From contig JBJCIZ010000333.1 in assembly GCA_051294375.1 (NCBI GenBank), positions 1 through 17,880 on the forward strand: 17,880 bases of DNA. Reading direction: 5' to 3'. Below the pieces are notes generated by a model. That model made no database searches. It was not told the DNA's origin and saw only the letters and a list, made by a program, of their open reading frames with translations. Positions within the stretch are counted from its first letter, which is position 1. Every line of letters starts with the position of its first letter. This stretch comes from Paraspadella gotoi. Taxonomy: Eukaryota; Animalia; Chaetognatha. Position numbers and translations under genes: made by a program. This document shows positions 1 through 17,880 of the stretch, piece after piece.

Positions 1-1355
1 TATTATTAAAAAATTATATTTTTTGGGGAAAAATACAAAAGAATTCAAATAACAGGAAAGATGGATAATCAGATAGTTTTAATCAAATATATATGAAATA
101 AGGAGATATATAACTGTTTTCATTTGTAAAAAGTTATTTTATCTATTAATATATAAAGTTTTTCATTTTTTTGAACCAAAAAAATAAAGCGAAATAATAA
201 ACTAAGGCGATTAGGAAACTAATTAATTTATGGATCTGTGTATTTATTCAAATAGTGTTTAAAACTTTCATAATATAAACAAAAAGAAAAATAAATTATT
301 TAAAAAATCTTCCAAGGCAAGAGAGGTTTTGTTTATGATATAAAAGGCATCAGGCATTTCACCCACGGTGGCTACCTCTCACTATTGTTGCCTTTAAGTC
401 AATTCTGATATTATTTTTTCTTCCATTTTATAGAGTTTGAAATAAGAACAGAGTCAGAGAGGTTTATTTTTAATATTTACTAAATTTATTATTTGTAAAT
501 ATTAAAAACTCTCTCTTATTATTTTGAAAATTTATAAAATGAATAAAAAATAAAATCATGAAACAAAAATTATAAAGCGAGAGTGACAAAAACTAAAACT
601 GATATCAACAATGAAATTAAGTAAATGAAAATGGTTATTCAAGATCAGAGTTGTTTGGGTTCCGCGTACAACGTTGCATTTAGGAAAAAAAAAACGACTC
701 TTTTTCACTATTGTTCAGTTGTTACTTACAATGTTGATTAACTTTGTACCACAACACAAATTAGTACCGAACGAAAGGATTGGCTTAAAAACATCTCCAC
801 AATTTCTAATGATAAATAAGTCCATTTTTGGCAATTTTTAGCCCAAAAAGTATTATGTCCATTTTTGTCCATTTTTACTTACGACTTCCTGATTTGAATG
901 CCAAGGGAAAGTGAGAAAAATTTTTACTTTGGAAATCCGTTCTTTCTTATCTTCTTTACCTCTGTGGTAAATTTATTAGCTTAAATCATTTATAGTTTGC
1001 CTATAAATTAATTTTAAAGTTACAAGTCAAAAAAGTTGGAGTTTCAGTCTTTATCATAATTGTTAAACAAAAATAAATCAAATTGGTTGAAATTAACAGA
1101 AAATGTAGCCTATTGAATAAGCTTTTAACACCTATAAAATTATCAAAAAAACTTTTCTGGTTTAGCCACAGAATAATTTTTAAAGACGTCTTTTCATTTT
1201 GGTGACTTTTTGTGACTTGCATTTATTTTTGATAAAGAGAATATTTCAACTCATTTATTAGTTTTAAAAGATGAGGTACATACTGACCTTGATTAATAAA
1301 AAAAAAACCGCATCCTTTTAATCCACTGGAAAGCATCAGGACTTGTTTTTTCTCA

Positions 1356-1402
1356 AAATCGACAGATTTTGCGGAAAAATTTTCCGCAAAATCTGTCGAT
1401 TT
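1356..1402. repeat. Perfect 47-bp palindrome (23-bp arms, 1-nt spacer)
   Basis: AAATCGACAGATTTTGCGGAAAA-A-TTTTCCGCAAAATCTGTCGATTT read directly; the arms are exact reverse complements. Confidence 0.9.
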
Positions 1403-1514
1403 ACTAAATTTGCTAGGCAACCAAAATTGAAGAAAAATCATGCGCTACCTTCATTTCTTTCTTATATGCTTATTAAAGAATTTCTTTGATTTGGCTCAAT
1501 GTAAATGTAGTGAG

Positions 1515-1845
1515 AGTGAAGATGAAAGGGAAAACTATAAAGAGAAGGGGAGAGAATGAAAGAGAGGGTGAAGGAAAAAAACGAAGGCAAAGGGGAAAAT
1601 ATTGTGAAACAATTTGTAAGGTAAGAAAAGAGGGAAATGGAAAGAAAAGAGGGAAAAAAAGGAAAGAATGAAAATGAGAAAAAAAGGTGAGGAAAGTGCA
1701 TGAATGACCGAAAAAAGGTAGGGCCAAAAAAATGGTAAGTGACAGGCGCGAGAAGTAAGGGAGGAAAGAGGAAGAGGAAATATAAATAAGAGAAGAAAAG
1801 ATGGTGAAGAAAAATTATCAGGAAAAGCGTATGAAAGAAAAAAAA
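1515..1845 (+). repeat. Purine-rich (G/A) low-complexity tract
   Basis: Strong A/G strand bias; it produces the spurious Phe/Ser/Leu-rich minus-strand ORFs at 1462-1900. Confidence 0.7.
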
Positions 1846-2470
1846 TTGTATCAAGATAATGTGGCGTCTTACCTAAATCTTTTGTGTCAGTAAAAGACAT
1901 GAGGATTCTTATAAGGAATTCGATCTTTAAAAATCATCTGTACCATAAAAATTCAAGCATACTTTTTTCTAAAGTTAAGCAGTTAATGAAGATTAGATTG
2001 ACAAGCATTGAAGAAATCATGTCTTACCGTATTTTTAACTCATAGAAATTTACATGGGAAGTATCTAAGTAATAGAAGGAGATGACTTGAAGACTACCGG
2101 TTTTTTTAAATGAAGAAAGCTTCGTACTAACCAATGAGATCAAGAAATATGGTAATTATTGAAGTTCAGATTTCGTTGTCTAAAAAGACACCGATTGTAT
2201 GCGAACACTTTGGCTAAATCTCCACTCTCTATTTTCCATAGCCAGGCCTCTTGGGCGCGCAGGCCTAAGCGCTCGCTTGTCACAGGGATGCTGAACCCAT
2301 TCAAAAGCATGCAAGTTGGGCTATACAAATGTTTTTGGTGGTTATATATCGTCATATATCATATCTTGTATTTATGCTCCGCGCTAATGAACAAATTGAA
2401 CATGCTGTCTCGCTGTCGCCACGAGGTGACACCGCTGCGGGTGTGGCGCCCTGTAAAACCAGCCTCTTCA

Positions 2471-2700
2471 AGTTAACCAAATTATGTCAGTTAAACAAAT
2501 TATTTCAGTTGATCAAATTATGTCAGTTGACCAAATTATGTCAGTTGACCAAATTATGTTAGTTAACCAAATAATGTCAGTTGACCAAATTATGTCAGTT
2601 GACCAAATTATGCCAGCTGACAAAATTATGTCAGTTGACCAAATTATGCCAGTTGACCAAATAATGCAAGTTGATCAAATTATGCAAGTTGACCAAGTTA
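2471..2700 (+). repeat. 18-bp minisatellite, consensus AGTTGACCAAATTATGTC, about 12.8 copies
   Basis: Units counted by eye; explains the (MSVDQI)n and (QLTKLC)n ORFs. The same unit occurs inverted at 9690-9771 and 11545-11608. Confidence 0.95.
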
Positions 2701-3276
2701 GCTTATTACCTCCTAATTATCGTAGGCAGATCCGACATTGTTTGCTCAATCTTGTTTCGTATCAAAGTTTATCATGGATCTAGATTTTTTTATGCCATTG
2801 TGACGATCCTTATTAGACCTTTCCATATATGAAAAGTTTTGAAATAAAAAAAAAACGAGTATTGTGTAAAAGGTGCCCAATTAATGAAATATGGTATTTA
2901 TAATTGTAGAGCCAAAGTCAGAGAATTTTTAAAAATATTTAAATAGCCCATAAAAGCCCGTTAAAATCTTTTAATTGCTATCCATTTTTAAACTTGCTAA
3001 TTGCTTATTTTAACTAAGAATCATTAGTAATAATGTATATTAATAAAATTTGGCCCTCCATAGTACTCATTTCTTGTAAGTTCATTTCTCTTTATGATTT
3101 CCCCCTTTACACCGTTATTATAATAAATACTAGGAAATAGCAAAAAATATGAGTTTCAACAACGATTTATTTTATTTAAAAACGGACACTATAATAAATA
3201 CATAATGAATAATGAACATTCCGAGATTATTTTTGCCCTCATTAGCATTTTTTCATGATCTTTGTTCAATGTTCAG

Positions 3277-4406
3277 GGTTTTTCGTTGCTTCCGACACCC
3301 GACGATTTCGACTCCTTCATATCCGCCATCGACGATTTGGGTTCAAAAGATTTTATCAAAGATTTTCACATGAATGAATTTCTTTTAATTTTCGCACCAG
3401 GAACGGATTTACGTCTAACGTCTTTGTATCGCAGCGGCGGAATAATCTTCCAGGTTTTTTCTTTTTTTTTCTTTTTTATATCTTCCTTCTTTATTCCCAT
3501 TTCCTTTTTGTCGCAGGACAAGGCCTCTTGCCTCCCACCCTTTCTACTTGCGCCTCCCCCTTCGTCTCTCGTGGTGGACGCCTGCGCGGCACCGGGTAAC
3601 AAGGCGACGTTGGCGGCGGCGCTGATGTCCAATCGCGGCCGCGTGGTGGCGTTTGACGTCGACGCCTCAAGATGCGAGACGATGAAGATGATGACGAAGA
3701 AGGCAGGGGCGTTGAAGGAAGGAGGAGGAGGAGGATGCGTCTCTATCAGGAACGAAGACTTCCTCGTCTCTTCGCCCGAAAATGATGCGGAGTTATCCTC
3801 GGCCGAGTTCATTCTCGTCGATCCTTCTTGCAGCGGATCAGGTTCGATTCTTGCCACCACTTGAGATGATTTTCAACTTCATCTGACAGGTTATTATCAT
3901 TGAATCGAGAGTGAAGTCCTTAATTCTCTTGGTCTCTTAATTCCCTTTCAGGCATTCAGTCTCGCCTCGACCATCTGACCAACTTTTCCAACTCGACCCG
4001 ATCCGCCTCTCGTCTCCTTCGCCTTCAAGCCTTCCAGCTCGACGCCCTCCTTCACGCCCTCCTCCGCTTCCCTCGCGCTCGTCGAGTCGTTTATTCCACC
4101 TGCAGCGTCGAAGAGGCGGAGAACGAGGCGGTGGTGGGGCGGGCGTTGGCGGCGGCCAAAGGGCGAGGCTGGCGATTGGCCGAGGCGATGGAAGGGGACT
4201 GGAAGACCAGGGGGAAGACGACGAGTCGGGCAGAGGAGGAAGAAGATTGCTCCTTCCAAAATTGTTTGAGATCTTTGCCCGAAACAGAAAGAACCAACGG
4301 ATTTTTCGTCGCTCTTTTCGTCAGAGATTCAGAGGAGGAAACTGAATCGGCAACCAGAAAAGAGGCGGCTAAAGGACTGCAATCGGGACCGCAATCGGGA
4401 CTGTAA
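3277..4406 (+). CDS. NSUN5: NSUN5/Rcm1-like 28S rRNA cytosine-C5 methyltransferase, 3' coding exons join(3277..3453,3517..3841,3952..4406); 5' exons not found in the window
   Basis: Spliced translation gives LYRSGGIIFQ|DKASCLP, DACAAPGNK (SAM-binding motif I), DPSCSGSG (motif IV Cys), VVYSTCS..EENE-like (motif VI catalytic Cys) and GFFVALF, colinear with NSUN5 as recalled. Introns 3454-3516 (phase 0) and 3842-3951 (phase 1) are GT-AG and frame-consistent; acceptor TTCAG ends at 3276. Confidence 0.92.
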
Positions 4407-4433
4407 TTGGGACCGCAATCGGGACGGCAAACG
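4374..4433 (+). repeat. 12-bp coding tandem repeat (GGACYGCAATCG) x5 spanning the NSUN5 stop codon
   Basis: GGACTGCAATCG / GGACCGCAATCG / GGACTGTAATTG / GGACCGCAATCG / GGACGGCAAACG; unit 3 carries the TAA at 4404-4406. Confidence 0.85.
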
Positions 4434-4637
4434 GGGATGAAAAGGAAGATGAAGAAAAGTTCAAATTCCAATAGACAAACAAAAATAATGAAAAAAATAT
4501 AGTTATTAGTTAATATAGTAGTTAATTAGTTATGTACTAGTATTTGTATTTTAATGTACTCCTATTAGTTTCCAATGGGTTAGCTTTTCTGATTGTTGCC
4601 ACAAATGGCGCAGTACTTAGTCCATTAAGTGCGAATC

Positions 4638-4643
4638 AATAAA
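4638..4643 (+). promoter_or_regulatory. Candidate polyadenylation signal (AATAAA) for NSUN5
   Basis: Canonical hexamer downstream of the NSUN5 stop and upstream of the next ATG; positional inference only. Confidence 0.4.
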
Positions 4644-4717
4644 GAAACAAAACCAAATGATTCGCCTTTCACGAACTCGATTTTAATGCGTCACGCGGAA
4701 AAACCAGAAAAATAGTA

Positions 4718-4746
4718 GTCGTCGTCGTCGTCGTCGTCGTCGTCGT
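4718..4746 (+). repeat. (GTC)n microsatellite, about 9.7 units, in the putative 5' UTR of the microprotein gene
   Basis: Read directly. Confidence 0.9.
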
Positions 4747-4760
4747 GACAAAACCGAAAG

Positions 4761-5016
4761 ATGGAAGACGTCGTCACTATCGTCGTCGTCGTCGTTCCTG
4801 TCATTCTCATCGTTCTGTTCGTCATCGTCGCCTGTTGGTGCCGAATGAAACGCAGGTCGTTCACTTGCTCTCATTTCTGTTTTAATTTCATTCTTTTATT
4901 TAACATAAATTCATTAATAATTTAGATCTCAAGAGAATCAACAATTTCGCTATTACGACGATGACGACGACAACAACGACTCGGGGCGAAATGCGGTCAA
5001 GGCGATGGACGTCTAG
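4761..5016 (+). CDS. Putative 61-aa single-pass transmembrane microprotein, join(4761..4855,4926..5016)
   Basis: ATG in AAAGATGG context with an in-frame upstream stop (TGA 4746-4748). A 70-nt AT-rich GT..TTTAG intron separates two GC-richer exons. Product: MEDVVTIVVVVVPVILIVLFVIVACWCRMKRRSQENQQFRYYDDDDDNNDSGRNAVKAMDV*. Confidence 0.6.
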
Positions 5017-5452
5017 AAAAGAAGGCAATCGTCATTTGCCTTTGATACTCGTCTAATGTACTTAAAAGTATTTAAAATTGTACATTTATTACTGCATAGG
5101 ATAATCTCCGTTTCATATTTTTCTTAATTTAGAAAATGGAAAACCAATCAAAAACTTGTAATTATCTCGTCAGTTTTTATTCATTTTGTTTGCCTACCTT
5201 ATAAATTGATTGGTTTTTGTATTTAATTATAATGTTTTGTACTTAGGAAATTTAATTACATTAAACCAAATTCTTGAGCAAAGGACAGATTTGGCTTTCC
5301 CGTTCTTTATGCCAAAATTTAATGGTCGTTCGTTATTTAATATGACAAGTTTACAGGTGTAGAAAAAAATGAATACGATTATATAAAAACAAAAAGTTAT
5401 TTCGTTAAGCAACTTTCTAATATTTGATGATCTAACCCGGTGGGTCAAGACC

Positions 5453-6051
5453 ATGCCGACGCTGACCCCTCATCACCACCACTACCATCACCACCAGCCT
5501 CCCCACCCCATACCCCCTCTCGCCCTCGACGCGACCGACTCCGACCCCGCCTCCTCCGTTGCTTCACCCTCGGGCGCATCCTCCTGCTCCTACGGATCTT
5601 CGATGCTGCCGCAAAGATTCGAGGACTTTCTTTCTGTTGGGCCCGGGGCCGCGGGTTCGTGGGGGATGTTCATTGTCCATATCTGGTGCCGGTTCGTTCA
5701 TGGAAAAATGTACTTCGAGTCAAAAAGAAAAATGTTTTATTTACAGAAGTCTTTCGTTGATAAACTTGAGGATCTCGTCGACGACACGCAATTGCTGCAT
5801 ATCCTCGACGGGCAACGCCACATGCTTACGAGGTTGACGCGGAATGAAATAAAAGAGAAGAAAAGAGAGAAATTTCGATGATTTTAGCCTCAATTTCCTG
5901 ATTTGAAAATTTTAGATTCGAAAAAAACAAACGAGATGCTCGTCAACTTCAACGCTCTCTCCGCCTCGCGATTCGACAACGCCGCTCTCGATTTCCGGCG
6001 TCATACCAATTTGCTACTAGATATGAAGAAGGAGCTCGACGGTGTCTTTAG
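5453..6051 (+). CDS. KXD1: KxDL motif-containing protein 1 (BORC/BLOC-1-associated), exons 1-3: about 5453..5654, 5747..5832, 5916..6051; two apparent +1 homopolymer frameshifts
   Basis: FVDKLEDLVDDTQLLHILDGQRHMLTR|FEKTNEMLVNFNALSASRFDNAALDFRRHTNLLLDMKKELDGVFR matches the recalled KXD1 core (MLxRFEKTNEMLLNFN..LS..R...F..H...L.EMKxDLD.IF.R). Reading FEKTNEML needs one A removed from the A7 run at 5921-5927. Confidence 0.88.
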
Positions 6052-6126
6052 GTATCGTTTCCGATTTGGATAATTCTCGTAATATCTGACAGCGTCACTC
6101 GTATGTATCTGTAGGGTATGTATCTG

Positions 6127-6293
6127 TAGGGTGTGTCATATCCAAAAGTTGTTTGTATCTTCACATTTAACACAGATGGGGCCTGGTTTAAAAAAATAGG
6201 TTTGTACGAATCGCCATTCAAATTGCCCAACGCCTTTATTAGCAGTACCCCTCTCCGAGGGATTTTTGGCACACCTTTCACATCATCCCTCAC
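6127..6293 (+). repeat. Left terminal inverted repeat of the intronic transposon
   Basis: Aligns by eye to the reverse complement of 15988-16162; shared blocks include TTGTACGA.TCGCCATTCA and GGCACACCTTTCACATCA. Confidence 0.85.
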
Positions 6294-6692
6294 TAGCGCG
6301 GATTATAAATACTTAACTTGAATTAAACCATCTCGAGTCCTCTTAATATTTTGGATTATCATTTTTAATCTATTGAACGGATTTCCGGACAATTTTAATC
6401 ACAAACCGATTCGTTCACGTCAAAATGTAACAAAATCCCCATTGAATTCTCGAGTCCTCCGAGCTCTCTCTCTGTTTGTTGTCTGGCTTAAAATCTTCCA
6501 ACTCAGAGGCGGCGGCCTTCTGGATTGGTCGAATTATGAGAATCCTGGATTTCGATTAGCGGATTTAAGTTTACTCCTCCGACGTGAGGAGCGATACTCT
6601 TAAGCCTCAAATTTTTTTCCAAGGAACATTAAGTAAAAACATTTATTTTTTCATAGTTTGTAGATAATTAGTCGTATTTAAAGTAGTTCATA

Positions 6693-6815
6693 ATGCCGAA
6701 AGTTAAAAAAACTCCAAGATTACATGTTAATCCAGTTATTGGATCGTCAAAACCTTTATCAAGCTCTGATTTACCTTTACTTCGTGACGTGCTTCAGGCG
6801 TGTCTTTTCAAACAG
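6693..6815 (+). pseudogene. Putative first coding exon of the element's transposase; remainder not found
   Basis: ATG-initiated 41 codons MPKVKKTPRLHVNPVIGSSKPLSSSDLPLLRDVLQACLFKQ ending at donor CAG|GTATTA, about 570 bp inside the left end. The P-V-I-G..LP..RDVL pattern resembles, from memory, N-termini of invertebrate hATm-type transposases. Confidence 0.4.
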
Positions 6816-7416
6816 GTATTAATATCATTTTTTAACCAATATGATTATAATTGATTAGTAATTTTATAAAGTTTTTATTAAAATTTAGCTAAATATGATT
6901 TTTGGGGGACGATTTAAATAATATTTTTATTAAAAGTTTTAACAGTTGCGGTTTATTTCTCAAGAGTGATTTTTAAAAGAATGTAACCAGCAGCGTAGTA
7001 CATTACACACAAAGTTTCATTTCCACCCTTTCACATGACAGGATCTTTCATTGCAGACAATCTAATCAAATACTGCTTTTTAGTGAACGTCATTGAGTGA
7101 ACCTCTTCTCCACCTGGCCACATGTGGACGCTTCCAATCATGTGGTTGATTTTCATCGCTTGTCCAGACCCGACCGTAGTTGAACCACCGACCCATTACT
7201 TTCTGAAAAAATCGACTAAAGAGCAAGAAAGCTTGGTGAAAAACTTGAGTAGAGACTTTCACGATTTCACCCTTTCCTTTTTTATTCTTCTTTTTATCGT
7301 CGCAGAGTCGCTTTCGCTTTTGGGCGAAATCGCCATAATCGCGACTTAGCCATGAGCTGTGAAACTACATCTATGCTTTCTTTGTTATGGCCGATTTTCC
7401 GCCTAAACTAACTCAG

Positions 7417-7995
7417 ATTAGGGTAGGGGTCAAGACTGGATTTACAGGGTAGGGTTGAGTGGTTTCTGGTCTAGGGTTAATTGTAGTAGCTAGGGTTAGA
7501 GTGTTTAATGGTTAGGTTGAGTTAACGTTAGTTTATTTGCCTTAATATTAAAATGTCAATTTAGAAGGTCCACCGTAGGTGTCATGATGACCAGGCCCCG
7601 CTTAGGCTGTTAGGCTTAGGGAAGTAATGGCGAGGACATTAGGGATTGGGTCTGAGGCACGGAGATGTACGAGAGGCCTGGGCCCGGTTAGAGGTAGGGT
7701 CTGGGAGAGTAGGCCACGTGGTGTATACTATCGAAAGGCTATTAGGTTAGATTGAGTACGGATAGTGTATGGTGAGGCGGGCCTGGTTAGCGGTTAGGGA
7801 GCATGGAGTTGAACGGGAGGCTCATATGGTTAGGGAGGCGCCTGTTGGTTAAGTCGCATCGTAAGACGGTTAGTGGGCTTCGAGGCAACGGAAGATGTAC
7901 GGAGACTCCGGGCCGGGTGTAGGGTAGAGGAGGCACAAGAGTGAACGGGAGTCTGGTTTTAGGGTTAAGATTGGGAGAGCCTGTAGGTGATGTTA
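7417..7995 (+). repeat. Degenerate G-rich tract with many TTAGG/TTAGGG/GTAGGG motifs and internal degenerate repeats
   Basis: Strong G/T skew. GAGGCA(A)CGGA(A)GATGTACG..GGGCC..GGT recurs near 7655 and 7882; GAGT(T)GAACGGGAG recurs near 7806 and 7939. Confidence 0.6.
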
Positions 7996-9367
7996 CCGTT
8001 AGCTGGCGCTTTTCTTTATATTCGCTACTTTACACTGGCGAGGTCGCGAAGTCGCCAACTCAACTGGAACCACACGTCGACTCGTCGCGTGAATCGCAGG
8101 CGACAGTCGCTATTTGAATGAATCTACAACTTAGGCTTTTATCAATAAAGGGGTAAATTGCAAAGAAAATGAGTTATTTCAAGGCTCCATATTGATACAT
8201 GATATCATGATTTCTTTGTCTTTGGCAATGAAATGTAGCTGAGACATTGTAGTTTCATTAGCTAATCTTTATTTTTATAATTTTAAAGGGCATGTTTGGC
8301 AAATCAGTAGGAAACAAAATGACAACAAATTTTGAGAAAAAAATTTTTTAATTTCTTAATTTCTAATTTCTTACTATGACGTCAATGTGTTTGAAAGTAG
8401 GCTAAACCCAACAGAACGGAATAGTGCGTGACCGCTGTATATATATAATTTATATATACTTATACAGTAAATACCGCAAAATTAAAAAAAAATTAAAAAG
8501 AATTCAGACTAAGCGCCGTGTTTATTTTCAGTATTTTTTAGACTAGACCTTTATGGATTTTTTTTTGTTCCGGCGGCGTTGGATAGCCCAAACACTGCAG
8601 TTTCAGAAATCATCCATGGTTTTGTAATATTTACTGCTCTACTGGTGCAAAAATTTTGCTCGGACCCAAAATTATCTGAAACCGCTTCGTTCTTTCGGAT
8701 TTTTTTTTAAGCTCGGAGCGACATATCTACTTTATCTGATGTCACTCTGATTCAAGTTTCACTTTTTTTTTGTCTAGGAATGCTGACAGTGTTTAGAGAG
8801 GTCGCATTCGATCAAACTGCTCTCTTATGCGGGCTAAAAGTAAAACAAAAGTACCTTCAATAATGTCTCTCTAAAAATTAAACTCGAAAATGAGTTATTT
8901 AACTGTTTTATATATTTTTTTTTCTTTTTCTTTCTGTTTAAAAATTAATTTTCTTTTCTCAAATTTGATTTTTTAGTATCAAAATTTGTTGTCAATCCAG
9001 ATTTTTCTTATTTCTTATTTCAATGATCATTATTGCTTTTAAGATTTTTTTTTTGATAAACACGCAATGAAAAAAATTTACGCTTTCCCAAGTCACGAAT
9101 TTACTTAAACTCTATATTTTGCATATTAATATTAATTAAAGAGCACACTTCCCTTACTTCAATGTGTAAATCCATTCTATCTGTTAAAAATTTGGTCAGG
9201 TTCTTAACATCAAGAAAGATAAACAAATCAAAGCAGTTGTACAATGTCACCTTCTACCGAAAATTGACCAGTTTTTCAGCTTCCAGTTCTGTTCACAACT
9301 TCAGGAGTCAAGTATGTCATCCTTCAGAATCGCCTCCCCCGGGGGCGCTGCTAGGGGCGGGCCGGCC

Positions 9368-9522
9368 CCGGGGGGCAAGCAAATCCTTACTGCCTGGGGG
9401 CGGCCCCTTGTAGCCTCTTTTTTTAGGCCCCAAGGGGCTACTCCAGGGGGAATCCCCCAGGGGCTATAAAAACCTTTCCCCTGGGGGCCACCCCCAGGGG
9501 GATGAATTTGCCTGCCCCCTGG
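9368..9522. repeat. GC-rich foldback (MITE-like) with ~40-bp imperfect inverted arms; second copy at 11240-11394
   Basis: CCGGGGGGCAAGCAAATCCTTACTGCCTGGGGGCGGCCCC compared with the reverse complement of the right arm, CCAGGGGGCAGGCAAATTCATCCCCCTGGGGGTGGCCCC; internal small hairpin GGGGGAATCCCCC. Confidence 0.65.
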
Positions 9523-9689
9523 AACGGCTCTCTCTCCCTCTTATTTCTCTCTCCTCTCTCTCCCTCTTACTCTCTCTTTCTCTATCTCTTTTTTTTTCAT
9601 CTTTTATTAAAATAAAATATAAAAATAAAAATAATATTTTTTATTTCAATTAATCAATCAATGAACCAATAGCTGCGCCCATACCAATA

Positions 9690-9771
9690 TGCATAATTTG
9701 GTCAACTGACATAATTTGGTCAACTGATATAATTTGGTCAACTTTTAGAATTTGGTCAACTTTCATAATTT
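9690..9771 (-). repeat. Inverted copy of the 18-bp minisatellite (about 4.5 units; about 3.5 units in the duplicate at 11545-11608)
   Basis: ATAATTTGGTCAACT units are the reverse complement of the 2471-2700 unit. Confidence 0.9.
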
Positions 9772-12384
9772 TTAATTTTTAATAACATTCAAGTCAATGT
9801 GACTTTTGTTTTTTCCATTAAAACTCACTTTTACTTGCACACTTTTCTACCTACAAACACAATTTTATCTTAATTCNNNNNNNNNNTCGCTACTTTTATC
9901 ACTGGCGAGGTCGCGAAGTCGCCAACCAACTAGAACCATACCTGCGACTCGTGCGTGAATCGCAGGCGACATCGCTATTTGAATGAACTACAACTTAGGC
10001 TTTTATCAATAAAGGGGTAAATTGCAAAGAAAATGAGTTATTTCAAGGCTCCATATTGATACTATGATATCAATGAATTTTCTTTGTTTGGGCAATGAAA
10101 TGTACCTGAGACATTGTAGTTTCATTAGCTAATCTTTATTTTTATAATTTTAAAGGGCATGTTTGGCAAAATCAGTAGGAAACAAAAATGACAACAAATT
10201 TTGAGAAAAAATTTTTAATTTCTTAATTTCTAATTTCTTACTATGACGTCAATGTGTTTGAAAGATAGGCTAAACCCAACAGAATCGGAATCAGTGCATG
10301 ACCGCTGTATATATATAATTTATATATACTTATACAGTAAATATCGCAAAATTAAAAAAAATTAAAAAGAATTCGGACTAAGCGCCGTGTTTATTTTCAG
10401 TATTTTTTAGACTAGACCTTTATGGATTTTTTTTTTGTTCCGGCGGCGTTGGATAGCCCAAACACTGCAGTTTCAGAAATCATCCATGGTTTTGTAATAT
10501 TTACTGCTCTACTGGTGCAAAAATTGCTCGGACCCAAAATTATCAGAAACCGCTTCGTTCTTTCGGATTTTTTTTAAAGCTCGGAGCGACATATCTACTT
10601 TATCTGATGTCACTCTGATTCAAGTTTCACTTTTTTTTGTCTAGGAATGCTGACAGTGTTTAGAGAGGTCGCATTCGATCAAACTGCTCTCTTATGCGGG
10701 CTAAAAGTAAAACAAAAGTACCTTCAATAATGTCTCTCTAAAAATTAAACTCGAAAATGAGTTATTTAACTGTTTTATATTTATTTTTTTTTCTTTTTCT
10801 TTCTGTTTATAAATTAATTTTCTTTTCTAAAATTTGATTTTTTAGTATCAAAATTTGTTGTCAATCCAGATTTTTCTTATCTTTATTTCAATGATCATTA
10901 TTGCTTTTAAGATTTTTTTTTTGATAAACACGCAATGAAAAAAATTTACGCTTTCCCAAGTCACGAATTTACTTAAACTCTATATTTTGCATATTAATAT
11001 TAATTAAAGAGCGCACTTCCCTTACTTCAATGTGTAAATCCATTCTATCTGTTAAAAATTTGGTCAGGTTCTTAACATCAAGAAAGATAAACAAATCAAA
11101 GCAGTTGTACAATGTCACCTTCCAAAATTGACCAGTTTTTCAGCTTCCAGTTCTGTTCACAACTTCAGGAGTCAAGTATGTCATCCTTCAGAATCGCCTC
11201 CCCCGGGGGCGCCGCTAGGGGCGGCCCCGCGGGCCGGCCCCGGGGGGCAAGCAAATCCTTAGTGCCTGGGGGCAGCCCCTTGTAGCCTCTTTTTTTAGGC
11301 CCCAAGGGGCTACTCCAGGGGGAATCCCCCAGGGGCTATAAAAACCTTTCCCCTGGGGGCCACCCCCAGGGGGATGAATTTGCCTGCCCCCTGGAACGGC
11401 TCTCTCTCCCTCCTATTTCTCTCTCCTCTCTCTCTCCCTCTTAATCTCTTTTTTTTTCATCTTTTATTAAAATAAAATATAAAAATAAAAATAATATTTT
11501 TCAATTAATCAATCAATGAACCAATAGCTGCGCCCACACCAATATGCATAATTTGGTCAACTGATATAATTTGGTCAACTTTTAGAATTTGGTCAACTTT
11601 CATAATTTTTAATTTTTAATAACATTCAAGTCAATGTGACTTTTGTTTTTTCCATTAAAACTCATTTTTATTTGCACACTACAAGCAAAATTTTATCTTA
11701 ATTTATCTATGAAATTTTAAATAGTAGAATAAAGAGAGTAGGATGGTTTTAATTTTTTAATTCACTTATAAAAAATAATCAATTAATTAATTAATTATTA
11801 ATATCAGTCTTTAAGTCTGTCCCACATTAGTATTGAATTCAAATTATTCGTGATTAGGTATATGGATTGGAATGAAATCTTGTGTGTGGGTAGAAAAGTG
11901 TGTGATTGAGCTAGATATAAAGTTTTGCTCACTCTCTCGCTCAAACCATCAGCCTTTCCTCAACAACGTGAGTTCATCTGAGGCAATCTACAAACTGACA
12001 ATTATTAATTACAAATCTTAAATGAAAAAAAAATATTTCATGATGTGGAACTCATTTAATGTTGATCACAATTTAAAAATCTTGATAAATAGTTTTTTTT
12101 TTTTGTTTTTTTGGTACTCCATAATTCACTAAGTAGGTCTGTCGATTACTGCCTATTATTTGTTTATTTATGAAAAAGAAGAAAAAAAGAAAAAGGAATT
12201 ATTGTGCCCACGTCATACATTGTTTGCTCAAACTTGTTTTTATATCTTTTAATTGAAATAAAATAATTAAGTTCAAAAATACAAATATTATAATTTTTAG
12301 ATAAAATATGGAATAAACGAGTTAACAATAATTTGAAAAAAAATGTACATTTTTTTCAGTTATATAAAACAAGTCTTGAAAGAT

Positions 12385-12510
12385 AGAAAGAGATAGAGAG
12401 AGAGAAAGAGAGAGAGAGAAAAAAAAATAGAAAAAGAAAAAGAGAGAAAAAAGAGAGAGAGAGAGTAAGAGAAAGAGAGAGAGAGAGAAAGTAAGAGAGA
12501 AAGAGAGAGT
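12385..12510 (+). repeat. Imperfect (GA)n microsatellite; complementary (CT)n tracts at about 9528-9590 and 11400-11450
   Basis: Read directly. Confidence 0.85.
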
Positions 12511-13502
12511 AACCAGACTACAAATAACAATTGTCAGAAAAGTTATATCTTTCTCTATAATAAAACTACTTTTTCTCTACCTTAACCGCCCCTGACGGCG
12601 AAAGCACTTCTTTTTCTCACCAAGGATTACCCCAAGGGCAGACTTTTTTAGCACCCAGGAGTCTATTAGGGCGCTGCACCCCTCAATGCACCATTGACTG
12701 TACTCGCCCCTGAGAATAGATCTGCCCCCTGCGAGGCGCGAATCCCTAGATACCGCAACCCACGCGGGCGGAGGAAAATTATGGGAGATGCACAATAATC
12801 CTCTCAGGAGTGAGGAGAAAAAAACACAATAATTAAATATAATATTATAGCACGAGAATCACTTCACACCCAAAACGTAATTTCAAGAACCAAATTTCCT
12901 CCGAAAAAGGCTTGTTGAAAAAAATCACAATTTTGAAGGCAAAAAACAGCGCGAAAAACCAATGAAAGATTGTAAAGCTATTAGTGGTTTCTTTAATGTC
13001 GAGAAGGACTATTGCACAAAAAAGACACTAATCAAAATGGACGGTCGAATTCACCCACCCTACAGGAAAAGGAATGGGACACCACCGCTTGCATCAAAGT
13101 GGACAGAGTGGCGAGATTAAAACATGCAAGCGACAAACAAAAATGAGATAAACATGAAATAAATTGAAATACAGAAAGACGAAATGAATCGAAATTGGAC
13201 TAATTTTACAACACAGCTCGGCATTCCATTTTTATAGAACGAGAAAAAACTTCTGCGTGTACATTCGGTAAACAAACAAATAACAAATTGGTAAACAAAA
13301 CAATACAAAAAAATTCAAAATAATTTCTTATCAGGCAATAGAATTTCTGAAGAATTCGTCTGGCGATTTTATTTTCTTTCTTATATAATAATACTCAGGA
13401 TCCCCACTTCTTGTGTAATGGGGGCAGTAAATAAACCCAAAAAATTCAATCATGAAGTTAGTCAACTCTTTCAAATAAGCTGTTCCACAAAATTTTTTAG
13501 TG

Positions 13503-13690
13503 AAGAAAATTGAAATCTGCAATCAAAATTAAGAAAAGCCTATTTTGAAATTTTTCGATTTTATAAAGATAGTACTATAAATATAGCCTACTGCGAAAAT
13601 TGAAGAATATAAAATAAATTTTTTTTACAAATTAATGTTCATGATGGTATTTTGTTCATAATTGACCTTTAGAATTTTCGTATGCAACTT
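13503..13690 (-). repeat. About 190-bp dispersed repeat; diverged inverted copy at about 17597-17787
   Basis: Reverse complement shares AAATTCTAAA.GTCAATTATGAACAA.ATACCATCA..GAACATTAATTT and TTCAAAATA.GCTTTTCTTAATTTTGATT.CAGATTT with 17600-17780. Confidence 0.8.
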
Positions 13691-15849
13691 TCACTACACT
13701 CTAATGCTTAATGGCGGTTTGAACATATTGTAATGCCCAACTTCAGTTATTATGATTGTTACTAAATTTTTTCCCTTCAAGCAGTCTGGACAGGAAGTAT
13801 CTACAAAAAAGTAAGCACACCTTAATAAAGAGTCAGAGTACAAGTCTGATATCACTATAAGAAGCAAATTATCATCTATAATAAAATGCAAATTACTTTG
13901 ATAGAAGCTTTTTTATCTGCAACTGTTGGTCCACATCCTCCAACAAATTGAGGATGCCTCCACAGAGCCTCTTGGGATTGGTGCTTATCAAATCATGATT
14001 GGAATATAAACCTAGAGGGTTTTATCAACTAATAAAGCAATATTTGATGCCATAACTCTTATTTTTTTATTTCTGTAGGTGTCAAAAATTTTTAAAAAAA
14101 TTCTTATAAACAGGATATCTTAAAAAGTATTTGGTCAATCAAGATGAAATTTATTGTTTACTGTAATTATATCGTGTTCTATTAATTAAACTTATATCAA
14201 ATAATATAAATAAATATTTTATATGAAATTGGTACAACCAATATAAAAATCATCTATTCATTTAATAAATAAGCTATCTTGCCCCTGACTTTGGACAGGC
14301 TTTGGCGGTTTAAGGCCTCCATCACTATTACAAGATAATGACATCGCAGGTCCCTTCAAGCTTTCAATAAAGACTCTCTCACTCCCAGAGTACCTGGCTT
14401 CCTATCAATGAAGTGGTATAATATTTCAAAGAATGTTTAAATTGTATGAAATCGGGGGGGGGAATTATTGTACTCTGCACTAGCATCAAAATAAAAACGC
14501 ATATATAATTTTATTTTTAAAAGAATCTGTGCAGGAATTATCCTCCAGGATGTAGACACACCAATCTTTTAAAAGATGTATATTAAATTAGAAAGTGCCA
14601 CCTATTTATGAATAAAACTGTGTATAAAATTTTTATAGTACCTCTAAAGCCAAAAAGAGATGGTGCGCAATGTATTGGCAACTACCTAGTGCAGCAGCTA
14701 AAGAGAGAGATCTTTCACTACAGCTGCTAATGCTTAATGGCGGGTTTGAACATCATTCGGTAGTGCCGCAACTCAGTTATTAATGATGGTTACTAAATTT
14801 TTTTCACTTCAGAAGTGCTGGACCAGGAAGTACTCTACAAAAGTAAGCTCACCTTAAATAAAAGAGTCGAGACCGTACAAGTCTGATAATCACTAAAAAG
14901 AAGCAAATTATCAATCGCTATAATAGAATGGTAAATTATTTTGATAAAAACTTTTTTAACTGCACAACTGTTGGTACCACATCTCCAACCAAATGAGGAT
15001 GCTCCATCAGAAGCCTCTTGGGATTGGTGCTTACTCAAGATCAATGATTGGAATATAAACTAAGAACAAACGCGGTTTTCCTATCACTAAGATACAACGC
15101 ACATCTCTTGATGATGAACTGTTATTTTTTATTTTTCTGCTAGCGTGTCCAAAATTTCTTTTAAAAAATTCTTACTAAACATAGATATGCTTAAAAAGTA
15201 TTCTGGTCAACGTCAAGATTCGAAATTTATTGTATTTACTGTAATCTATGATCTATGTTCTATTAATTAACAACTTATATTAAATATATACTATAAGATA
15301 TTTTTAGTATAGAATTGGTACACACCAATAATAAACATCATCTAATTCATATTAATATATATTTACAGCTATTGCTCTGCGCGATTGCTGATCTCTTGGA
15401 CAAGGCCTTTGGCGGTTTACAGGCCTCTCAGGTTGCACTATGATATCGAGCATACGGATAAAGTGACATCGCAGAGATTCCTCTTCAAGGCTTCCATAAA
15501 GACTCTCTCCACTGCCGCAGGTACCTGGCTCCCTATACTGAGTGGCTAATATTTCATAAGACATGTATTAACATTGTATGAAAATCGGGGGGGAATTATT
15601 GTACTCTGACTAGCATCAAAATAAAAACGCATATATAATTTTTATTTTTAAAAAGAATCTTGTGCAGCGAAATTACCTCGAGGATGTAGACAACACCAAA
15701 TCTTTTTAAAAGATGTGATATTACAATAATGAAAAGTGCACCTATTTATGCAAATAAAACTCGTGTATAAAATTCTTTATAGTACCTCTAAATGCTAAAA
15801 GATCAATGGTGCGCGCAATGTCATGGCAACCTCACCTAGTCAGGCAGCT
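13688..15849 (+). other. About 1-kb tandem duplication (13688-14699 and 14712-15849); the second copy looks like an uncorrected long read
   Basis: Copy 2 is roughly 12% longer because of scattered single-base insertions. GAGAGAGAT (the 3' end of the PacBio SMRTbell adapter) sits at the junction, 14703-14711. Confidence 0.8.
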
Positions 15850-15987
15850 GTGCTGGATGCTGTTTGTGGGTCCACTAGAAGTAGTATCGACTCTAAATTT
15901 TAAAATATATAAACTGTCAATGGACTTCTACTACCTTTACATGACTTATGTTGGGCACGGCTTCAACATCTTCATATTTTGATCAAC

Positions 15988-16162
15988 GTGGACGGGTGAT
16001 GTGAAAGGTGTGCCCAAATCTTCATGAGAGCGCGTAACTGCTAAAAGGCGTTTGGACCAATTCTGAATGGCGACTCGTACAACTATTTTCTTTAGGCCAT
16101 GTCCCTCGTGTTTCAACATGCCGTGCAAGATACAAACAACTTTTGGAATATGACACACCTTA
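15988..16162 (-). repeat. Right terminal inverted repeat of the intronic transposon
   Basis: Reverse complement matches 6127-6293; the ORF track shows the shared peptides PKVVCI and GTPFTS in both copies. Confidence 0.85.
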
Positions 16163-16246
16163 GTATCTGTCATTAATAAAGGTTTAGAACAAAATTGAGG
16201 AGCCTTTACTCCCCTTGTTCAGAGTTTGAATTGTCACTCTTCGCAG

Positions 16247-16428
16247 CGAATCCGATTATTCGAAGAGGCGCCTTCGCTCTCGTTTATCCGACGGGCTTAT
16301 TCAAAGTTTTCGTCAGCGATGTGTACAACCATGCGAGGATCTTCTTGAGGAGGACTGAGGACTGCCATTTTTCGCTGACGCCCACAATCCGCAGCAGCAG
16401 TAACGTCTATTCGTCGAAAAGCGATTAA
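16247..16428 (+). CDS. KXD1: Probable terminal coding exon of KXD1 (indel-damaged sequence)
   Basis: After acceptor CTCTTCGCAG (ends 16246) the sequence CGA ATC CGA TTA..AAG AGG CGC..TAT CCG ACG..GCT TAT TCA AAG reads, with a few single-base corrections, RIRLLKRRL...YPTAYSK. This is the expected continuation of exon 3 (human [20 protein letters not shown] as recalled). The stop position is approximate. Confidence 0.7.
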
Positions 16429-16579
16429 TTAAAGTTAACATACTCATGGCAACCGCGGGCCATGCGATCTCGTGTGGCATCCGGGTGGCGCATCTTGCGC
16501 CCGGCAGCTGCGCGCTAACAGGCTCTTGGAGCCTGCAGTGACCATATAAAATATCCATTTGATTTGACATAAACTAGAG

Positions 16580-16787
16580 CCTATCTTGCCCTGACTTCTG
16601 CGACAGCGCTTTGGTGTTTAAAGGCTCCATCATCTTAACATAGATAATTACATAGCCGGTCCGATGCAAGCCTTTCAATGCAGACTCTCTCAACCATCCG
16701 TTTAATTCACTCCCAGCAAGTACCTGACTTCCTATCCAATGATACGTGGAAATCATTCTCAAAGCACATGTTCAATTTGTATGAAAG
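16580..16787 (+). repeat. Third, partial and diverged copy of 14272-14452
   Basis: CTATCTTGCCC..TGACTT, AGACTCTCTC, CACTCCCAG..GTACCTG.CTTCCTATC and TTGTATGAAA occur in the same order. Confidence 0.75.
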
Positions 16788-16874
16788 CACTCTAAACTAT
16801 CTTATTTTAATTATACTAATTCGTTTAAAGCTATTTACAATATATAACACTTTATTACAATACACAAAGGATTT

Positions 16875-16915
16875 CCGGGATTCGATCCCGGGACCTTTAA
16901 GCCAATGACTCTAAC
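16875..16915 (-). other. tRNA-like T-arm remnant (possible tRNA-derived SINE head); not an intact tRNA
   Basis: Minus strand reads GTTAGAGTCATTGGCTTAAAGGTC-CCGGG-ATCGAAT-CCCGG: a variable-loop-like AGGTC, 5-bp stem and 7-nt B-box-like loop. No full cloverleaf. Confidence 0.3.
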
Positions 16916-17064
16916 AGTATACATTAGTGGTTTTTCACCACTCTGGTATTTATCAAAATAGATATTCCATTCTTTACCTTAAATTAACTCAATCAGTTTA
17001 AGACAAAAAAAAACAATACTGCCGTTCTTATATACATATTCATGCTAGAGTATACTAGCAAATG

Positions 17065-17089
17065 NNNNNNNNNNNNNNNNNNNNNNNNN
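17065..17089. other. 25-N assembly gap
   Basis: Run of 25 N. Confidence 0.99.
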
Positions 17090-17880
17090 TGTTTTGTGGT
17101 TCCTCTTATAGAACCTTACTAATGTTATTTCTTTATTCATTCTCAAAGAATCTTCTTTACAAAGTTGATGCCATTCTCCATAATGTTATTATTTATTTCC
17201 TGTTAATGTTTGTTAATTGTTATTAATATTTATTGATTTACATTATTGTTTGTTATTGCTATTACTTTTTAATGCATATTGAAACTAATTAGTGAGGGAC
17301 AGACGCACGTGGCGAATTGCAAACGATCGCCACATTCCTTGCAAAAAGTTGATATAAGAAAGTATAATTTTTTTTTTTTAATTCTTTCATTAAGTTGGTT
17401 AAAAATGTAAAGACCTATATTTAAGACACTGATTTTTAATTTCCAGTTAAAAAATATATTTTTTTTGTAATTTTAACCGACTTAATGACAATTTTCGAAA
17501 AAGGATTATATTTTCTTCGATCAACTTTTTATAAGGAATCTGAATCTGTTCTCAAAATTTAAAAAAAATCATTTTAAAATTTTGACATTATATAGTAGAG
17601 CGTACCGAAATTCTAAAAGTCAATTATGAACAACATACCATCACTGAACATTAATTTATAAAAAAAATTAATTTTATGTTTTTTTAATTTTTGCAGTAAG
17701 CTATATTTATATATAGTACTATCCTTATAAAATCAAAAAAATTCAAAATAAGCTTTTCTTAATTTTGATTACAGATTTGAATTCCTCGTCAAAAGTTGAT
17801 AAAAAAAAATATAAATCATTTTTATTAAATTCTTTCATTTAGTGGGTTAAAAATTAAAACAAGTTTGAGCAAACAATGTC

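What the first reader, a model, noticed from the sequence alone, without database searches (positions are those of the whole stretch)
4761..5016. Hidden two-exon membrane microprotein between NSUN5 and KXD1
Seen in sequence: splicing a 70-nt GT-AG intron (4856-4925), similar in size to neighbouring introns, joins two GC-richer exons into a clean 61-codon ORF that the ORF track misses. The layout is a 3-residue N-terminus, a 21-residue hydrophobic helix (V4-A24), juxtamembrane CWC, a basic RMKRR stop-transfer, YY followed by DDDDD, and a C-terminal M-D-V. Established knowledge: a minimal ectodomain, juxtamembrane Cys palmitoylation sites and cytoplasmic tyrosines describe type III transmembrane adaptor proteins, and a terminal hydrophobic-X-hydrophobic tripeptide fits a class II PDZ ligand. 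Inference: an unannotated signalling or trafficking microprotein. I do not recognise a family.
Basis: partly seen in the sequence, partly recalled or inferred. Interest (0 to 1): 0.8.

Follow-up and report, generated by a model that had tools for sequence, protein, structure and literature searches.

The report
Conserved Stannin-like membrane microprotein gene
A spliced two-exon gene squeezed between NSUN5 and KXD1 encodes a 61-residue protein that is conserved in two related sequences; it is predicted to cross the membrane once and, from a weak likeness to vertebrate Stannin, likely acts as a small lipid-modified regulator on internal cell membranes.

Summary
The gene is real. An RNA contig skips exactly the 70-nt GT-AG intron. 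A search with exon 1 alone found two relatives of 56 and 59 aa that start at the same Met. The 59-aa one also matches exon 2, which was not in the query. Exon 1 is under purifying selection (dN 0.27, dS 2.0), and a relative has a donor-like site at the same position. Conserved: tiny N-terminus, one hydrophobic helix, CWCR, basic cluster, one Tyr and terminal Asp-Val. The class II PDZ reading fails: the relative ends D-D-V. The nearest known protein is Stannin (top PDB hit, E 5e-4; top ESM hit, 0.85), but the match rests on helix plus CWC only and Pfam membership is not met. The exons lie on one RNA contig with KXD1, and a relative has spliced NSUN5-KXD1 fusion proteins beside the separate ones. 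The gene is therefore likely the middle cistron of an operon; earlier unchecked notes call the genome an arrow worm. Translation, palmitoylation, location and partners are untested.

The parts
4761..4855 (+). Exon 1 coding part: Met1, acidic 3-residue N-terminus, hydrophobic helix V4-A24 with conserved Pro13, CWCR, basic cluster; A at -3 and G at +4 of the ATG
   Evidence: Translation; 18 of 32 columns invariant in three sequences; dN 0.27, dS 2.04 against L001; same start context in L001
4856..4925 (+). 70-nt GT-AG intron, phase 2 in codon 32
   Evidence: Skipped by X1 contig; L001 has a donor-like GTTAGT at the same position and phase
4926..5016 (+). Exon 2 coding part: polar and acidic tail with QE, an aromatic-Tyr-Asp patch, RN and terminal Asp-Val, then TAG
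   Evidence: Matches the tail of P0003: global score 22, reached by 7 of 20000 shuffles, best of 7360 stop-free 29-mers of the window; BLASTP E 0.003
4719..4746 (+). GTC microsatellite in the leader; both RNA contigs end in this masked repeat
   Evidence: Sequence, nine GTC units; masked stretch 4703-4754; absent from L001
5017..5452 (+). AT-rich spacer to KXD1 (likely 3' UTR plus KXD1 leader), crossed by one contig; holds an unused acceptor-like site ending at 5132
   Evidence: Contig covers 4924-5654 unbroken; GC 0.28; acceptor scan
3952..4409 (+). Context: last exon of NSUN5; AATAAA at 4638
   Evidence: Pfam, RNA contig 3948-4702, signal scan
5453..5654 (+). Context: first coding exon of KXD1
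   Evidence: tblastn with P0125, KxDL domain in the later exon, RNA joints

Best explanation
This is a spliced, conserved gene for a 61-residue protein that is predicted to be a type III single-pass membrane protein (tiny N-terminus outside, tail in the cytosol) and that likely works like Stannin/Hemotin, as a likely palmitoylated regulator on endosomal or similar internal membranes. Shown: the splice, the reading frame, two relatives, purifying selection on exon 1, and conservation of the helix, CWCR, the basic cluster, one Tyr and terminal Asp-Val. Inferred from established topology rules: the helix inserts as a reverse signal anchor with no signal peptide, the acidic N-terminus and basic cluster set the orientation, and the two cysteines at the cytosolic face are S-acylated. 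Inferred from resemblance only: the short tail binds a cytosolic adaptor (14-3-3 as for Stannin/Hemotin, or a PDZ protein through the terminal Val) and tunes membrane traffic. Its mRNA is likely cut from an NSUN5-microprotein-KXD1 precursor by polyadenylation and leader trans-splicing; this step is inferred, no leader was seen.
For: Splice. Relatives P0002 and P0003 align from residue 1. Exon 2 matches the P0003 tail out of sample. pS 0.70 against pN 0.22, Fisher p 8e-5, 30 codons. Best 19-residue hydropathy 3.3-3.6 in all three; AlphaFold2 helix with pLDDT 86-95 over residues 1-30 of P0003. Stannin is the top PDB hit for all four helix-containing queries: E 0.0036, 0.00049, 0.28, 0.0006, and the top ESM hit for P0003 (0.85). 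CWC is in 13 of 13 vertebrate Stannins of the Hemotin paper's S4 file (by eye). Operon: one contig runs from exon 1 into KXD1; a relative has NSUN5 alone, KXD1 alone and an in-frame fusion; 13 AUGs precede the KXD1 start on the spliced contig, so scanning from one cap is implausible; 18% of Paraspadella genes are in operons (PMC12460157, passages).
Against: The Stannin match is as strong for P0002, whose tail is likely intron, and the window's tail alone hits nothing in the PDB, so it rests on helix plus CWC. PF09049 scores 9.8 bits against a cut-off of 25 in 1 of 3 sequences, while Melan-A, Psg1 and DUF5385 models hit 3 of 3 as weakly. The ESM score is under 0.9 with 132 of 256 shared features, a lead only; with exon 1 alone Stannin ranked 8th at 0.75. 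Local alignment of the two tails is not significant by shuffling (1858 and 867 of 20000), and the next-best 29-mer scored 21 against 22. Ser33 is Ala in P0003, so no aligned 14-3-3 phosphosite is evident. No leader or poly(A) end was seen; the site before the ATG has no pyrimidine tract; L001 shows no NSUN5 in 867 nt upstream. A contig across two genes shows no single transcript.
Confidence: 0.5

Rival explanations
1. It is a plasma-membrane signalling adaptor of the type III transmembrane adaptor kind (LAT, PAG, LIME; names recalled): palmitoylated, tyrosine-phosphorylated, and tethered by a PDZ protein through the terminal Val.
For: Minimal ectodomain, juxtamembrane CxC, one aligned Tyr with Asp two residues later, and terminal Asp-Val kept in the window and P0003. 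Weak sub-threshold Pfam hits to LST1 and MAP17 for exon 1.
Against: Residue -2 is Met here and Asp in P0003, so no one PDZ class is kept; the tail is under 30 residues with one shared Tyr; no adaptor family reaches its cut-off.
Confidence: 0.23
2. It is a single-helix accessory subunit that docks onto a larger channel, pump or transporter through its helix and acylated cysteines, as TMIE does; the tail is secondary.
For: The helix and CWCR are far better conserved than the tail (59-66% identity over exon 1; 27% over the tail), including Pro13 and the L16-I17-x-L19-F20-V21 face. TMIE appears as a weak hit (E 0.78; ESM 0.76).
Against: TMIE hits are not significant and rank below Stannin; no partner is suggested by the neighbours.
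Confidence: 0.17
3. It is an upstream ORF on a single bicistronic mRNA with KXD1, and its main job is to tune KXD1 translation.
For: One contig holds both exons and KXD1 coding exons.
Against: 13 AUGs precede the KXD1 start; the peptide sequence itself is under selection; in a relative KXD1 (484 aa) sits on contigs of 1617 and 1555 nt, which leave no room for this ORF.
Confidence: 0.07
4. It is a chance ORF: a decayed GTC microsatellite in a spliced leader reads as a Val-rich helix; or the two exons are internal exons of a longer gene.
For: A pure GTC run lies just upstream and 9 of 31 exon-1 codons are GTC; X1 differs by one GTC unit inside the helix; an AG precedes the ATG.
Against: L001 keeps the protein with only 2 GTC codons and no GTC run; differences fall 10/4/17 on codon positions 1/2/3; both relatives start at the same Met in a search with no length limit; the AG has no pyrimidine tract.
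Confidence: 0.03

Closest known systems
Stannin (SNN, PDB 1zza; PF09049-PF09051) and insect Hemotin (PMC4807881)
   Same: Small ORF; short N-terminus, one hydrophobic helix opening with VT, C-W-C at its cytosolic end, then basic and acidic residues (alignments). Hymenopteran and mosquito Hemotins also have a very short acidic N-terminus and end in a hydrophobic residue (by eye).
   Different: 59-61 aa against about 88; one extra helix residue and a conserved Pro; the vertebrate N-terminal segment and the conserved linker and cytoplasmic segments are not matched (no PF09050 or PF09051 hit); no second helix is confidently predicted.
Melan-A (PF14991) and other helix-plus-Cys type III proteins (TMEM52, SMIM3, glycophorin C, TMIE)
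   Same: Same coarse layout; weak hits in Pfam (MLANA 3 of 3 sequences, best E 0.051) and ESM.
   Different: All below cut-off; they show that the layout recurs and may be convergent.
Chaetognath operons resolved by leader trans-splicing (PMC2481426, PMC12460157)
   Same: Head-to-tail genes on one strand, short spacing (351 nt stop to start from NSUN5, 436 nt to KXD1), RNA contig across the KXD1 gap.
   Different: No leader was observed here; the organism's identity comes from earlier AI notes; a relative also splices NSUN5 directly to KXD1 in frame.

Membership tests
Stannin/Hemotin | Small ORF under 100 aa with an N-terminal transmembrane helix | tested here: met
   61 and 59 aa; hydropathy 3.3-3.6; helix model
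Stannin/Hemotin | Cys cluster at the cytosolic end of the helix (CWC in vertebrates) | tested here: met
   C25-W26-C27 invariant in 3 of 3; aligned to Stannin CWC
Stannin/Hemotin | Pfam SNN_transmemb, SNN_linker, SNN_cytoplasm at gathering score | tested here: not met
   PF09049 9.8 bits against 25 in P0002 only; the other two models absent. The models were seen in chordate clusters, so a distant member could fail.
Stannin/Hemotin | Sequence similarity beyond the helix (linker, second cytosolic helix) | tested here: inconclusive
   P0003 aligns to residue 47, but the likely intronic tail of P0002 scores as well and the window's tail alone finds nothing; tail pLDDT 53-59
Stannin/Hemotin | Endosomal location, 14-3-3 binding, rescue of hemotin mutants | not testable with these tools
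   Functional criteria from PMC4807881 section 10
Type III transmembrane adaptor proteins | Minimal ectodomain, no signal peptide, juxtamembrane CxC/CxxC (definition recalled) | tested here: met
   Layout shared by 3 of 3
Type III transmembrane adaptor proteins | Several conserved cytoplasmic tyrosine motifs in a long tail (definition recalled) | tested here: not met
   One aligned Tyr in a tail of 27-29 residues
Class II PDZ ligand | Hydrophobic residue at -2 and at 0 (definition recalled) | tested here: not met
   M-D-V here, D-D-V in P0003; only two full-length sequences available
Trans-spliced operon | Co-oriented close genes on one precursor | tested here: inconclusive
   Contig continuity and spliced NSUN5-KXD1 fusion in a relative; contigs cannot show single molecules
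Trans-spliced operon | Spliced leader on the downstream mRNAs | not testable with these tools
   Only assembled contigs were served, and 4703-4754 was masked

The most novel reading that the evidence does not exclude
This is the first Stannin/Hemotin homologue reported outside vertebrates and insects in the sources I saw: a minimal 60-residue version in a likely arrow worm, which keeps the vertebrate CWC, defines the family's core, and sits in one operon with the lysosome-trafficking gene KXD1.
Probability: 0.3. Interest if true: 0.65.

Novelty: new member of a known kind. Interest (0 to 1): 0.45.

Why it matters
It is a real gene that length-based annotation misses, in what is likely a phylum rich in new genes. 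If it is a Stannin/Hemotin homologue, it fills the gap between insects and vertebrates in a family whose unity rests on weak similarity (PMC4807881), and a 60-residue version would allow a direct test of which parts are needed (rescue of fly hemotin mutants). If not, it is an undescribed lineage-restricted membrane microprotein family. The spliced NSUN5-KXD1 fusion in a relative shows how an operon-like precursor can yield a fused protein.

Tried and rejected
No whole genome was held, so paralogues could not be counted. No run is on record as RNA; X1 is a guess, supported by its spliced joints. X2 gave one identical 180-nt piece at 5051-5230 and nothing on the ORF; X3 and X4 gave only short pieces, mostly at repeats, with one 42-nt KXD1 match. 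A word-based search with the unspliced 54-aa frame found no candidate; with P0003 it found only itself and P0002. The metagenome scan confirmed 1 of 166 pattern matches. Foldseek against the PDB gave 0 matches for the single-helix model; the wide structural search could not be run, the machine was busy three times. Rfam found nothing in 3000-7500. Earlier-finding look-ups near the locus, by DNA and by P0003 were blank, and 'stannin' and 'hemotin' occur in no earlier finding. Three supplement files of PMC12460157 held none of NSUN5, KXD1, KxDL, stannin, SNN; files not held may list the operon. PMC5845663 was not held. I first guessed that L001's intron ends at its TTTTCAG; the frame after it does not resemble P0003's tail, so the exon likely lies beyond the contig end. 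No complex prediction was sent: no partner sequence was at hand. A direct tree with Stannin and Hemotin sequences was left out, so homology stays open.

Full report
Observation. The exons have the GC and GC3 of the neighbouring NSUN5 and KXD1 exons and the intron and downstream spacer are AT-rich. The neighbours are NSUN5 and KXD1 by Pfam.

Splicing. Of four runs laid, only X1 holds the locus (0.70 of words). Its 2302-nt contig skips exactly these 70 nt, and no contig covers 4888-4923. X1 also skips four NSUN5 and KXD1 introns, so it behaves as RNA although the label is a guess. In the ORF, X1 differs only by a 3-nt deletion at about 4780, one Val fewer. This is one run and one contig.

Conservation. 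phmmer with exon 1 alone (32 aa) over 1.84 billion proteins, with no length limit, gave two hits at E 0.001 or better: P0002 (56 aa, 66%) and P0003 (59 aa, 59%), both aligned from residue 1. Each is a one-member unnamed cluster. P0003's tail was not in the query, yet it matches exon 2: global score 22, reached by 7 and 5 of 20000 shuffles, and exon 2 is the best of 7360 stop-free 29-mers of the window, the next scoring 21; the intron read-through and the two other frames score -34, -26 and -24. The local score is not significant by shuffling (1858 and 867 of 20000), so the tail is weakly conserved and the signal depends on the anchored ends. P0002 comes from a genomic contig, L001, where likeness to P0003 stops at codon 32 and a donor-like GTTAGT follows at the same phase, with GC falling from 0.51 to 0.31: a shared intron position, inferred. 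Against L001, 30 codons give pS 0.70 and pN 0.22 (dS 2.04, dN 0.27, Fisher p 8e-5), with differences 10/4/17 by codon position over 31 codons; blastn found no comparable match in the flanks. L001 keeps the protein with 2 GTC codons against 9 here and has no GTC run, which disposes of the microsatellite null. The shared Met, the shared A at -3 and G at +4, and the lack of a pyrimidine tract before the AG at 4759-4760 dispose of the internal-exon reading.

What is kept. M-E, V-T, V-V-P13, L-I-x-L-F-V, C-W-C-R and R-R are invariant in three sequences. In the tail the two full-length sequences share Q-E, one Tyr, an Asp two residues later, R-N and terminal D-V. The window ends M-D-V and P0003 D-D-V, so the class II PDZ reading is not kept; the double Tyr and the Asp run are not kept either. 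AlphaFold2 on P0003 gives one helix, confident over residues 1-30 and uncertain after (pLDDT 53-59, pTM 0.41). Orientation and palmitoylation follow from the positive-inside rule and the known acylation of juxtamembrane cysteines (my knowledge), not from a test.

Nearest known protein. Stannin (1zza) is the top PDB hit for P0003 (E 0.0036), for the profile (0.00049), for P0002 (0.0006) and for window exon 1 (0.28), and the top ESM cluster for P0003 at 0.85 with 132 of 256 features. These are not independent. Because P0002, with a likely intronic tail, scores as well and the tail alone finds nothing, the match is helix plus CWC. No Pfam model reaches its cut-off; Melan-A and others hit as weakly. 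PMC4807881 (abstract, passages, sections 7, 9 and 10 in part or whole, S4 file) places Stannin and insect Hemotin in one family of endosomal peptides that oppose 14-3-3 zeta; its 39 sequences are 26 insect and 13 vertebrate, all 13 vertebrate ones with CWC (counted by eye). I put true homology at about 0.3 and a Stannin-like way of working at about 0.5.

Transcript. The contig that splices the intron runs unbroken from 4924 to 5654 and on through KXD1 exons; the NSUN5 contig runs to 4702. Their unplaced ends (36 and 41 letters) fall in the masked GTC repeat, so they likely abut, but this is not shown. Thirteen AUGs precede the KXD1 start on the spliced contig, so KXD1 likely has its own 5' end. 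The best NSUN5 hit (120 listed of 260) is P0004, an unnamed 824-aa protein with NSUN5 and KxDL domains. Its cluster has five members: two fusions (JGI and Logan), two KXD1-only and one NSUN5-only. The fusion leaves NSUN5 at the point where the NSUN5-only form begins its own tail and enters KXD1 at residue 51, as expected if a read-through precursor is spliced past the last NSUN5 exon and the first KXD1 exon. An assembly chimera is possible, and the two sources may share raw data. So the NSUN5-KXD1 link is likely kept in a relative; whether the microprotein lies between them there is unknown, and L001 shows no NSUN5 in 867 nt upstream. Earlier AI notes call this genome an arrow worm; my own search shows only an animal whose named relatives are about 45-55% identical in NSUN5. 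In chaetognaths about half the genes are trans-spliced and 18% are in operons (PMC12460157 passages; PMC2481426 passages). The operon reading is likely (about 0.6) but no leader was seen, and the microprotein lacks a good upstream acceptor, so its own promoter remains possible.

Literature. Six searches. Three papers hold both NSUN5 and KXD1, once each (listing only). None of the 12 listed of 728 papers on small ORFs or Stannin mentions chaetognaths. Passages of PMC3759937, PMC9260892 and PMC13240139 were read and add only that Stannin is a membrane peptide paired with Hemotin. KXD1's role in BORC/BLOC-1 lysosome traffic is recalled; operon neighbours need not share a pathway.

Verdict. A real, spliced, conserved single-pass microprotein gene with no named family; a new member of a known kind, with a testable lead to Stannin/Hemotin. 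Interest 0.45.

Noticed in passing
P0004, P0124 (relatives of window 3259-4409 and 5453-6052): In-frame NSUN5-KXD1 fusion proteins of 824 aa in a relative, beside separate NSUN5 (P0127) and KXD1 (P0125, P0126); the junction behaves like a splice that skips the last NSUN5 exon and the first KXD1 exon.
   Followed up: partly
window 4374-4510: The NSUN5 stop lies inside a 12-nt tandem repeat; the frame past it goes on to a Lys/Arg-rich stretch that aligns with the basic tail of the relative's NSUN5. X1 has 24 more nt of this repeat and, read by eye, the same stop.
   Followed up: partly
window 5113-5132: The strongest acceptor-like site of the spacer (pyrimidines 0.79), not used in the contig: a candidate trans-splice acceptor for KXD1.
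   Followed up: no
window 1-3258 and 6053-17880: The 5' exons of NSUN5 and the 3' exons of KXD1, present in X1 contigs, were not found in the window by tblastn with the relative's proteins: long introns or assembly breaks.
   Followed up: partly
window about 8030-9870 and 9890-11700: A tandem duplication of about 1.87 kb, 93-100% alike in most blocks, on either side of a short N gap; may be an assembly or haplotype artefact.
   Followed up: no
window 2435-2740, 9685-9771, 11540-11609: An 18-nt tandem repeat with inverted copies inside the duplicated block.
   Followed up: no
window 7400-8000 and 13700-16900: A G-rich strand-biased stretch with scattered TTAGGG-like words, and decayed repeats at about 1.1 kb spacing.
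   Followed up: no
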